A stretch of 64,000 bases of DNA from the human T2T-CHM13v2.0 reference genome, Homo sapiens. The stretch's first letter is position 1. Every line of letters begins with the position of its first letter. The notes under the pieces are model-generated. The model was not told the origin of the DNA. It was given only the letters and a program-made list of their open reading frames with translations, and did no database searches. The stretch lies in the NCBI RefSeq assembly GCF_009914755.1, contig NC_060935.1; one strand, given 5' to 3'. Below, one piece after another: positions 21,246 through 21,791 of this stretch. Position numbers and translations under genes: made by a program.

Positions 21246-21334
21246 AATTTGAGAAGTTTTAGGTCATTATTTTTTCCCCTGTCTCACCAAAACACGCCTG
21301 CATTTTCTGGCGGGAGAACTTCTAGATTTCACAA
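21246..21334 (+). repeat. Direct copy of 20453-20545
   Basis: aatttgagaagttttaggtca(t/c)tattttttcccct...accaaaacacgcctgcattttctggc(g/a)ggagaac(t/g)tctagatttcacaa in both. Confidence 0.95.
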
Positions 21335-21791
21335 ACTAGGCCAGGCACGGTGGCTTACGCCTGTAATCCGAGCACTTTGGGAGGCTGAGGTGGGCAGATC
21401 ACAAGATCAAGAGATCGAGATCATCCTGGCCAACATGGTGAAACCCCATCTCTACTAAATTCAAAATTTAGCTGGGCGTGGTGGCACGTTCATGTAGTCC
21501 CAGCTACTTGGGAGGCTGAGGCAGTAGAATAGTTTGAACCCGGGAGGTGGAGGTTGCAGTGAGCCGAGATCGTGCCTCCGCACTCCAGCCTCGGTGAAAA
21601 AGCGAGACAACATCTCAAAAAATAAAAATAAAAATAAAACATAAAAAATAAATAAAGTAAGCTAACTAATAGCAAGAAAACTATCCAAAAATGGATAAGA
21701 ACAGGACTGAGAAAGGTATCTATGACCTTCTTGGACTAGACAACTGTCAGGATACAAGATAAGGCTTTTGTAACTTATTCCATTATGGTAT
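21331..21791 (+). repeat. Direct copy of 24380-24852 (AluSc 21339-~21650 plus ~140 bp of unique 3' flank)
   Basis: Same 5' flank acaaactagg, same private Alu variant gatcacaagatcaagag, same non-Alu flank ctaatagcaagaaaact...ggactgagaaaggtatc...ttattccattat; 9 mismatches in ~140 bp of flank. Confidence 0.95.

What the first reader, a model, noticed from the sequence alone, without database searches (positions are those of the whole stretch)
21246..21791. Chimeric templated insertion stitched from two local donors (one upstream, one downstream)
Seen: 21246-21334 copies 20453-20545 (0.8 kb upstream, where it is continuous with an old L1M), then switches at an acaa microhomology (cacaa / acaaactagg) into a copy of 24380-24852 (3 kb downstream): an AluSc plus ~140 bp of non-Alu flank. 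Only the 24.4-kb Alu has both TSDs; the 21.3-kb Alu carries just 8 bp of the left one, so it was not made by its own retrotransposition. Established: serial microhomology-joined local copies are the signature of template switching (FoSTeS/MMBIR) or Pol-theta templated insertion. Inference: ~6-7% flank divergence (9/~140) suggests an old, roughly catarrhine-age event. A repeat annotator would simply list two independent Alus.
Basis: partly seen in the sequence, partly recalled or inferred. Interest (0 to 1): 0.8.

Follow-up and report, generated by a model that had tools for sequence, protein, structure and literature searches.

The report
Nested local copy-paste insertions, human chr11
A 546-base stretch of human chromosome 11 was stitched together from copies of two nearby sequences, and part of it was copied again, upside down, 1.5 kb away; this is a clean but ordinary fossil of DNA template switching with no sign of function.

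Summary
21246-21334 copies 20453-20545 (donor A). It joins, across a shared ACAA, a copy of 24380-24852 (donor C: an Alu with its patterned tail, its right target-site duplication and 131 bases of flank). All pieces are private to this locus in the 3.1-Gb genome, with 2-3 copies each, so the flank is not a dispersed repeat.

Direction of copying is now shown for both donors:
- A runs without a break into an old dispersed repeat (7 of 7 family copies cross its left edge).
- Only C's Alu has both 15-base target-site duplications.

19354-19756 is an inverted copy of 21067-21465, which spans the native flank, the first junction and the Alu left arm. It lies in a TA-rich repeat. It shares derived changes with the insertion and keeps 4 bases that the insertion later lost, so it is probably a second, later event.

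The best reading is serial microhomology-mediated templated insertion (MMBIR/FoSTeS-like). This is a known kind of event, and multi-template germline cases are in print. Replicative switching and break-repair patching cannot be told apart here. No primate orthologues were available, so the empty site and the dating remain untested. Interest is low to moderate.

The parts
20100..20491 (.).
   Evidence: 42 genomic matches, of which 39 are dispersed at 66-82% identity; 7 of 7 fetched copies align to window about 20100-20319 through 20482-20491, across A's left edge at 20453; a profile of 5 copies matches 20124-20483 (E 2e-30).
20453..20545 (+). Donor A (93 bases), source of the left part of the insertion
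   Evidence: (D7, D8). Only 3 copies in the genome, all in this locus.
21067..21245 (+). Native unique flank upstream of the insertion, later copied together with it into D
   Evidence: 2 copies in the genome (itself and 19578-19756, minus strand, 98%); 4 of 179 differ.
21246..21334 (+). A', the copy of donor A. It lacks 4 bases (ACTT/CTTA) that A and D both keep.
   Evidence: alignment: 5 of 89 differ from A, plus one 4-base gap.
21331..21334 (+). ACAA microhomology at the A'/C' junction
   Evidence: Read. The chance of 4 or more shared bases at a random blunt junction is 0.016.
21331..21791 (+). C', the copy of donor C: 8 bases of the left target-site duplication, Alu body (about 21339-21616), patterned A-rich tail (21617-21653), right target-site duplication (21654-21668) and unique flank (21669-21791)
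   Evidence: (D1-D3). The flank is 94% identical to C and has only 2 copies in the genome.
24373..24852 (+). Donor C: Alu (24388-24668) with tail and both 15-base target-site duplications (24373-24387, 24715-24729), plus unique flank to 24852. The copied part starts at 24380.
19354..19756 (-). D, an inverted copy of 21067-21465: native flank, A', the ACAA junction and the Alu left arm, ending in the Alu's central A-rich linker
   Evidence: I1: 221 nt at 98%; I2: 183 nt at 94%; 95.3% over 403 columns; 15 of 403 differ. D shares a 3-base deletion with B and keeps the 4 bases that B lost.
19331..19353 (+). Left copy of the 23-base unit CATTATTGCTATATATATATACA that abuts D
   Evidence: D6; sequence.
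19757..19833 (+). Right side of D: 18 TA-rich bases of unknown origin (19757-19774), then two more copies of the 23-base unit (19775-19797, 22 of 23 identical to the left copy; and from 19802), running into (TA)11.5
   Evidence: D6; ((TA)11.5 at 19811-19833).

Best explanation
Two successive copy-and-paste (templated) insertions occurred in one 5-kb stretch of non-coding DNA.

Event 1. A 3' DNA end at about 21245|21792, either a stalled nascent strand or a resected break end, primed on donor A 0.8 kb behind and copied 89-93 bases. It came off at ...CACAA and re-annealed through ACAA inside the left target-site duplication of an Alu 3 kb ahead. It copied 457 bases there (the Alu, its tail, the right target-site duplication and 131 bases of flank) and then returned to its own site. 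Both donors stayed in place.

Event 2, probably later. A 403-base stretch spanning the native flank, the first junction and the Alu left arm was copied in inverted orientation into a TA-rich repeat 1.3 kb upstream. Synthesis stopped in the Alu's A-rich linker.

Shown: the copies, their privacy to this locus, the direction of copying, the internal microhomology, and the absence of retrotransposition marks. Inferred: the polymerase template-switch mechanism (MMBIR/FoSTeS-like), the order and separation of the two events, and the ages. No function is implied.
For: (1) Copies are real and private to the locus: 2-3 copies each in 3.1 Gb. In the 64-kb window, every self-match at 84% identity or more either lies between Alu sequences or belongs to this cluster.

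(2) Direction A to A'. A's left part is continuous with an old dispersed repeat in 7 of 7 family copies. A' and D match that family only from profile position 376 onward, with nothing upstream.

(3) Direction C to C'. Only C has both 15-base target-site duplications at a TTT|AAAG site. C' begins inside the left one and shares the tail pattern and 131 bases beyond the right one.

(4) One event for both halves. They abut exactly, with 4 shared bases (chance 0.016), and are equally diverged from their donors (5/89 against 9/131, p = 0.79). An AGATTT hexamer also lies just upstream of ACAA in both donors. This was noticed after the fact.

(5) Not retrotransposition. There is no terminal poly-A on either strand and no flanking duplication at 21245/21792.

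(6) D derives from B. D contains B's native flank and the chimeric junction but only half the Alu, and it is bounded on both sides by TA-rich repeat units.

(7) D is later than B.
- B and D share 3 substitutions (21356, 21421, 21448) that are derived relative to C and to the majority state of 12 other Alus. They also share a 3-base deletion.
- D keeps the 4 bases later deleted in B.
- Differences outside CpG are 5/403 for B-D against 11/220 for event 1, p = 0.007.

(8) Germline multi-template insertions with junction microhomology, using up to five templates, are described in human genomes (PMC8421209, passages read).
Against: - No empty site was seen, so the outer junctions (21245|21246, 21791|21792, and both ends of D) cannot be scored for microhomology, deletion or filler.
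- With all sites counted, B-D (15/403) is not significantly less diverged than event 1 (14/220): p = 0.16. For unique flanks alone, 4/179 against 9/131 gives p = 0.08. The two-event order therefore rests on non-CpG counts and on shared derived changes, and error-prone synthesis within a single event could mimic the latter.
- An error-prone-synthesis signature is not significant. Changes derived on the B lineage against the C lineage number 19 against 12 (p = 0.28); transversions 9 against 2 (p = 0.065).
- D's junctions show no evident microhomology with the donor as read, and 18 bases of unexplained TA-rich sequence lie at one end.
- The TA-rich target folds no better than shuffled sequence (z = 0.24).
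- Nothing separates replicative switching from break repair by synthesis-dependent patching.
Confidence: 0.7

Rival explanations
1. One single complex event made both B and D. The newly made chimeric strand, with its adjoining native flank, was itself used as template for an inverted copy deposited 1.3 kb upstream during the same replication or repair episode. The changes shared by B and D would then be errors of the low-fidelity polymerase rather than elapsed time.
For: - The divergence difference is not significant when all sites are counted (15/403 against 14/220, p = 0.16; unique flanks p = 0.08).
- The B lineage has a transversion-rich spectrum: 9 transversions against 2 on the C lineage, p = 0.065.
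- Strings of several templates made in one event are known (PMC7025897, passages read; PMC8421209).
Against: - Non-CpG divergence is fourfold lower for B-D (5/403 against 11/220, p = 0.007).
- The native, not newly synthesised, flank differs from D at only 4 of 179 bases.
- D lies in a separate target 1.3 kb away with its own repeat-flanked junctions.
Confidence: 0.15
2. Break repair by capture of loose DNA fragments. Two pieces released from the neighbourhood, A-like and C-like, were ligated into a double-strand break by end joining, with ACAA used for alignment. No polymerase template switch was involved.
For: - Class 2 templated sequence insertions with end-joining marks (microhomology, no target-site duplication, no poly-A) are described in humans (PMC5110952, passages read).
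- The junction features seen here fit equally well.
Against: - Both donors are intact in place, so the fragments would have to be extra copies made by synthesis anyway.
- Both donors lie within 3 kb and in direct orientation, which favours a tethered 3' end over free fragments. This is inference.
- The published class 2 cases are from distant regions and are thought to be RNA-derived.
Confidence: 0.1
3. RNA-mediated (L1-driven) insertion, at least for D. A transcript through 21067-21465 was reverse-transcribed from the Alu's internal A-rich linker and inserted with a long target-site duplication, namely the 23-base units.
For: - D is flanked by 23-base direct repeats, 22 of 23 identical.
- Its 3' end, in the sense orientation, falls in the A-rich linker of the Alu.
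- Class 1 templated insertions made by L1 are known (PMC5110952).
Against: - D has no poly-A tail after ...AAATACAAA.
- The target does not resemble TTTT/A: on the window's + strand the junction reads ...TATATACA|TTTG.
- No AATAAA lies upstream of the end.
- A third copy of the 23-base unit stands next to the second, so the 'duplication' is more simply a pre-existing tandem array.
- B has no poly-A and no duplication at all.
Confidence: 0.04
4. Independent Alu insertions and chance or dispersed-repeat similarity, as a repeat annotator would read it. Alternatively, a decayed 3-kb tandem duplication.
For: NCBI masking lists 19333-19487, 21331-21599 and 24381-24720 as separate repeats (hub annotation).
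Against: - The two Alus share the right target-site duplication, the tail pattern and 131 unique bases found nowhere else in the genome.
- Segment A has no dispersed copies above 82% identity.
- A tandem duplication would leave homology across 21792-24379 against 24853 onward. None exists.
Confidence: 0.01

Closest known systems
Complex microhomology-mediated templated insertions (MMB-TI; MMBIR/FoSTeS class) found as germline variants in humans (PMC8421209)
   Same: - The insertion is built from more than one nearby template.
- There is microhomology at the template switch.
- The donors are retained.
- Both forward and inverted copying occur.
- There is no gross rearrangement, and the events sit in non-genic DNA.
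   Different: - The segments here are 89, 457 and 403 bases, taken from 0.8, 3 and 1.3 kb away. The size and distance ranges of the published germline events were not in the passages I read; the searches there used minimum lengths of 10 or 25 bases.
- This case is fixed in the reference and old (2-7% diverged), not polymorphic.
- The product of one event served as the donor of the next.
Templated sequence insertion polymorphisms, class 2 (PMC5110952)
   Same: No target-site duplication, no poly-A, and microhomology at a junction. Interpreted as a patch at a DNA break.
   Different: Published cases derive from distant genomic regions and are thought to pass through RNA. Here both donors are local intergenic DNA within 3 kb, and one piece is an Alu carrying its own flank and target-site duplication.
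Cycles and chains of templated insertions and local n-jumps in cancer genomes (PMC7025897)
   Same: A copy-and-paste string of 2 or more templates at one locus, and frequent inverted junctions. Attributed to replication-based template switching.
   Different: Those events are somatic and their segments typically come from different chromosomes. This one is germline, sub-kilobase and strictly local.
Short-range template switches in great-ape genomes (PMC7954356; search listing and start of abstract only)
   Same: A transient polymerase switch to a nearby alternative template in the germline.
   Different: By my recollection of that literature, those events replace tens of bases in place and create hairpin-forming inverted repeats. 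The events here insert hundreds of bases at a distance. The 32-base palindrome at 23865-23966 is closer to that class.

Membership tests
Microhomology-mediated templated insertion (MMBIR/FoSTeS-like) | The inserted sequence matches a nearby template, and the template is still in place | tested here: met
   A' against A: 84 of 89 identical. C' against C: 415 of 461 identical. D against B: 388 of 403 identical. All donors are intact.
Microhomology-mediated templated insertion (MMBIR/FoSTeS-like) | Microhomology at the template-switch junctions | tested here: inconclusive
   The internal A'/C' junction shares 4 bases, ACAA (chance 0.016). The four outer junctions need an empty site. As read, D's ends show none with the donor.
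Microhomology-mediated templated insertion (MMBIR/FoSTeS-like) | An ancestral empty site exists, so this is an insertion and not a deletion elsewhere | not testable with these tools
   No primate genomes are held. states that the genome has no relatives here.
Microhomology-mediated templated insertion (MMBIR/FoSTeS-like) | Excess point mutations in or near the newly synthesised tract (error-prone synthesis) | tested here: inconclusive
   Changes derived on the B lineage against the C lineage: 19 against 12 (p = 0.28). Transversions: 9 against 2 (p = 0.065)..
Independent Alu retrotransposition (target-primed reverse transcription) | The element has its own target-site duplication on both sides, and flanks unrelated to those of other copies | tested here: not met
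   - The Alu at 21339 has only 8 bases of C's left duplication and shares C's right duplication and 131 flank bases.
- The feature is met for the Alu at 24388: 15-base duplications, 13 of 15 alike.
L1-mediated templated insertion (class 1 TSIP) or chimeric retrocopy | A target-site duplication of at least 5 bases, a poly-A tail, and insertion at TTTT/A | tested here: not met
   - B has none of the three.
- D has flanking 23-base repeats but no poly-A and no TTTT/A site. The repeat unit also occurs a third time in tandem.
- The criteria are taken from PMC5110952.
Tandem or segmental duplication | Homology continuous over the whole duplicated unit | tested here: not met
   Homology is confined to 93, 461 and 403 bases. 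21792-22500 and 24853-25300 are unique.
Polymerase-theta end joining with templated insertion | Short templated inserts copied from sequence close to the break (size range recalled, not read here) | not testable with these tools
   By recollection, segments of 89-457 bases from 0.8-3 kb away are larger and more distant than typical. No call addresses this.

The most novel reading that the evidence does not exclude
This 5-kb stretch is a recurrent germline template-switch hotspot. It holds a two-donor insertion, a later inverted recopying of that insertion's own junction into a TA repeat, and a genome-unique, near-perfect 32-base palindrome (23865-23966) lying between insertion and donor. On this reading a local structure-forming sequence repeatedly stalled forks over tens of millions of years. 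Alternatively, all of it arose in one error-prone replication catastrophe, and the transversion-rich spectrum of the copy records the polymerase that made it.
Probability: 0.2. Interest if true: 0.45.

Novelty: new member of a known kind. Interest (0 to 1): 0.3.

Why it matters
It has no evident function. It lies in a gene desert; no gene is annotated in the window and the nearest annotated enhancer is 5.6 kb from donor C.

Its value is as a clean natural specimen:
- Both donors, the direction of copying and one junction can be read directly.
- A second event recopied the first junction. This gives an internal clock and a built-in outgroup for separating synthesis errors from later mutation.
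- It shows how repeat annotation hides such events, by listing three 'Alus'.
- Each insertion is a nearly homoplasy-free marker for dating catarrhine and hominoid branches.
- The specimen could help calibrate how often sub-kilobase, kilobase-range templated insertions become fixed in the germline.

Tried and rejected
- Hairpin potential of D's TA-rich target (19757-19845): -6.1 kcal/mol, z = 0.24. 120 of 200 shuffles fold at least as well. This gives no support.
- Tracing the old repeat beyond 20491 with a profile of 5 family copies: no continuation was found near A, so A's right edge could not be shown to lie inside the repeat. The profile beyond position 500 was contaminated by Alus present in the fetched loci. 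Family copies themselves do continue past that point, so the old repeat is broken at about 20491, inside A.
- Relative-rate and spectrum tests for error-prone synthesis: not significant.
- Rejected readings: an independent Alu insertion, a dispersed repeat travelling with Alus, a decayed tandem duplication, and a poly-A retrocopy for B (see rival explanations).
- One paper look-up failed on a badly formed search term and was not repeated.
- The Alu subfamily was not determined.

Full report
**Names used.**
- A = 20453-20545.
- B = 21246-21791, made of A' (21246-21334) and C' (21331-21791).
- C = 24380-24852.
- D = 19354-19756.

The hub annotation places the window at human chr11:38,006,001-38,070,000 (T2T-CHM13) with no annotated gene.

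**1.
- The repeat finder gives A against A' as two gapless blocks (52 nt at 94%, 40 nt at 93%). It gives C against C' as three blocks (129 nt at 92%, 218 nt at 81%, 175 nt at 92%).
- BLAST of 18500-25500 against the window gives 90.3% over 93 columns (E 1.8e-30) and 87.7% over 473 columns (E 4.6e-171).
- Reading the sequence and the four-way alignment: A reads ...AGATTTCACAA|GCAAACC, C reads ...AGATTTAAAGTAAACAA|ACTAGGCTGGG, and B reads ...AGATTTCACAAACTAGGCCAGG. ACAA is common to both donors.
- C's Alu (body 24388-24668) is flanked by AAAGTAAACAAACTA and AAAGTAAACTCACTA (13 of 15 alike), next to a TTT|AAAG site.
- B's Alu has the right duplication (AAAGTAAGCTAACTA, 21654-21668), the same patterned tail (..AAATAAAAATAAAAA..) and 131 further bases of C's flank. 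On its left it has only ACAAACTA.

**2. The pieces are private to this locus.** Searches of the whole 3.1-Gb assembly gave the following.
- The flank 21650-21791 has 2 matches, itself and C.
- 24722-25300 matches only itself and B.
- A has 3 matches, all local.
- 21067-21245 has 2 matches.
- 21792-22500 is unique apart from one 66-base weak hit.

The tool warns that very common words are skipped and that counts are lower bounds. These queries nevertheless returned their known local copies and nothing else. In a window-wide self-comparison, every match at 84% identity or more either lies between Alu sequences or belongs to this cluster.

**3. Direction of copying.**
- A longer query (19850-21060) found 39 dispersed matches at 66-82% identity, covering window about 20110-20492.
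- All 7 of the 7 copies I fetched align from about 20100-20319 through to 20482-20491, that is, across A's left edge at 20453.
- A profile of 5 of them matches 20124-20483 (E 2e-30). It matches B and D only from profile position 376, at 21246-21276 and 19577-19547, with nothing upstream.
- A is therefore native and A' is the copy.
- The old repeat itself stops at about 20491 in the window, although family copies continue. A thus spans an older breakpoint that A' and D faithfully reproduce.
- For C, the complete target-site duplications show that the Alu landed there. B starts inside the left duplication, so B was copied as DNA after that insertion and after the tail had acquired its pattern.

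**4.
- 19354-19756 is the reverse complement of 21067-21465 (I1: 221 nt at 98%; I2: 183 nt at 94%; 95.3% over 403 columns).
- It holds 179 bases of B's native upstream flank, all of A', the ACAA junction and the Alu left arm. It stops in the Alu's central A-rich linker.
- B has the whole Alu and flank whereas D has half an Alu, so B is the source.
- D lies in a TA-rich array. CATTATTGCTATATATATATACA stands immediately to its left (19331-19353). To its right come 18 TA-rich bases, the same unit (22 of 23 identical, 19775-19797), then a third unit running into (TA)11.5.
- Whether the flanking units are a duplication made by the event or an older tandem array cannot be told without an empty site.

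**5. Order and timing.** Site patterns:
- In segment A (89 columns): A alone 5, D alone 4, B alone 0.
- In the Alu left arm (135 columns): C alone 6, B alone 5, D alone 2. B and D also share a 3-base deletion.

Further evidence:
- With 12 other Alus as outgroup, three of the changes on B's lineage (21356, 21421, 21448) are shared with D.
- D keeps the ACTT that B has lost. B therefore went on changing after D was copied, and B had already changed before D was copied.

Divergences:
- A-A': 5/89.
- B-C flank: 9/131, or 6.9% (95% interval 3.2-12.6%).
- B-D unique flank: 4/179, or 2.2% (0.6-5.6%).
- B-D overall: 15/403.

Statistical comparisons:
- The two halves of B are equally old (p = 0.79).
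- B-D is younger than event 1 on non-CpG differences (5/403 against 11/220, p = 0.007).
- It is not significantly younger on all sites (p = 0.16) or on unique flanks alone (p = 0.08).

Set against recalled genome-wide divergences (human-macaque about 6-7%, human-orangutan about 3%, human-gorilla about 1.6%), event 1 would fall near the ape/Old World monkey split and event 2 within the hominids. The intervals are wide. Error-prone synthesis would also inflate apparent age. This dating is inference.

**6. Mechanism.**
- B has no terminal poly-A on either strand and no flanking duplication, so it is not a retrocopy.
- Homology is confined to the three blocks, so it is not a decayed tandem duplication.
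- What remains is templated synthesis with a switch of template at microhomology.
- The chance of 4 or more shared bases at a random junction is 0.016.
- The donors are 0.8 kb behind and 3 kb ahead, both direct. D is inverted and 1.3 kb away.
- This matches the published picture of MMBIR-like templated insertions. That includes germline 'complex' events using up to five templates, forward and reverse copying, and microhomology or microhomeology at junctions (PMC8421209, passages read). It also matches the replication-based copy-and-paste strings of cancer genomes (PMC7025897, passages read).
- Class 2 templated insertions, which are break patches with no target-site duplication and no poly-A (PMC5110952, passages read), are the end-joining counterpart.
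- I cannot separate replicative switching from break-repair synthesis.
- A test for a mutational burst on the copied lineage was only suggestive: B-derived 19 against C-derived 12, p = 0.28; transversions 9 against 2, p = 0.065.

**7. Verdict.** This is a real, well-resolved, two-step chain of local templated insertions. It is a new example of a known mutational class and has no sign of function. Its dating and its Alu subfamily label remain untested. The decisive orthologue comparison is still to be done.

Noticed in passing
window 23865-23966 (wider arms 23856-23903 and 23928-23975): A near-perfect palindrome: 32-base arms match at 31 of 32 bases, with a 38-base spacer. As single-stranded DNA it folds at -32.5 kcal/mol, z = -9.5, and 0 of 200 shuffles fold as well. 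It is unique in the genome; only self-matches were found. It lies between the insertion and donor C, about 0.4 kb upstream of C. It could be a short-range template-switch product or a fork-stalling structure related to the local instability. Neither possibility was tested.
   Followed up: partly
window about 20491: The old dispersed repeat covering about 20100-20491 ends abruptly inside donor A, although other family copies continue for 300-500 bases. This is an older breakpoint or deletion that predates the templated insertions.
   Followed up: partly
window 13661-14111: A second fragment of the same old dispersed repeat family, on the + strand (profile positions 120-586, E 2.3e-17).
   Followed up: no
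window 22944-23286 and 9679-10031: A 67%-identical inverted pair (E 8e-16), probably two copies of another old dispersed repeat.
   Followed up: no
window 21654-21668 and 24715-24729: At position 11 of the 15-base target-site duplication, the copy in B still matches C's left duplication (A), whereas C's own right duplication now reads C. The copy therefore preserves an older state of its donor at that site. At position 8, by contrast, B has a change of its own (G for A).
   Followed up: yes
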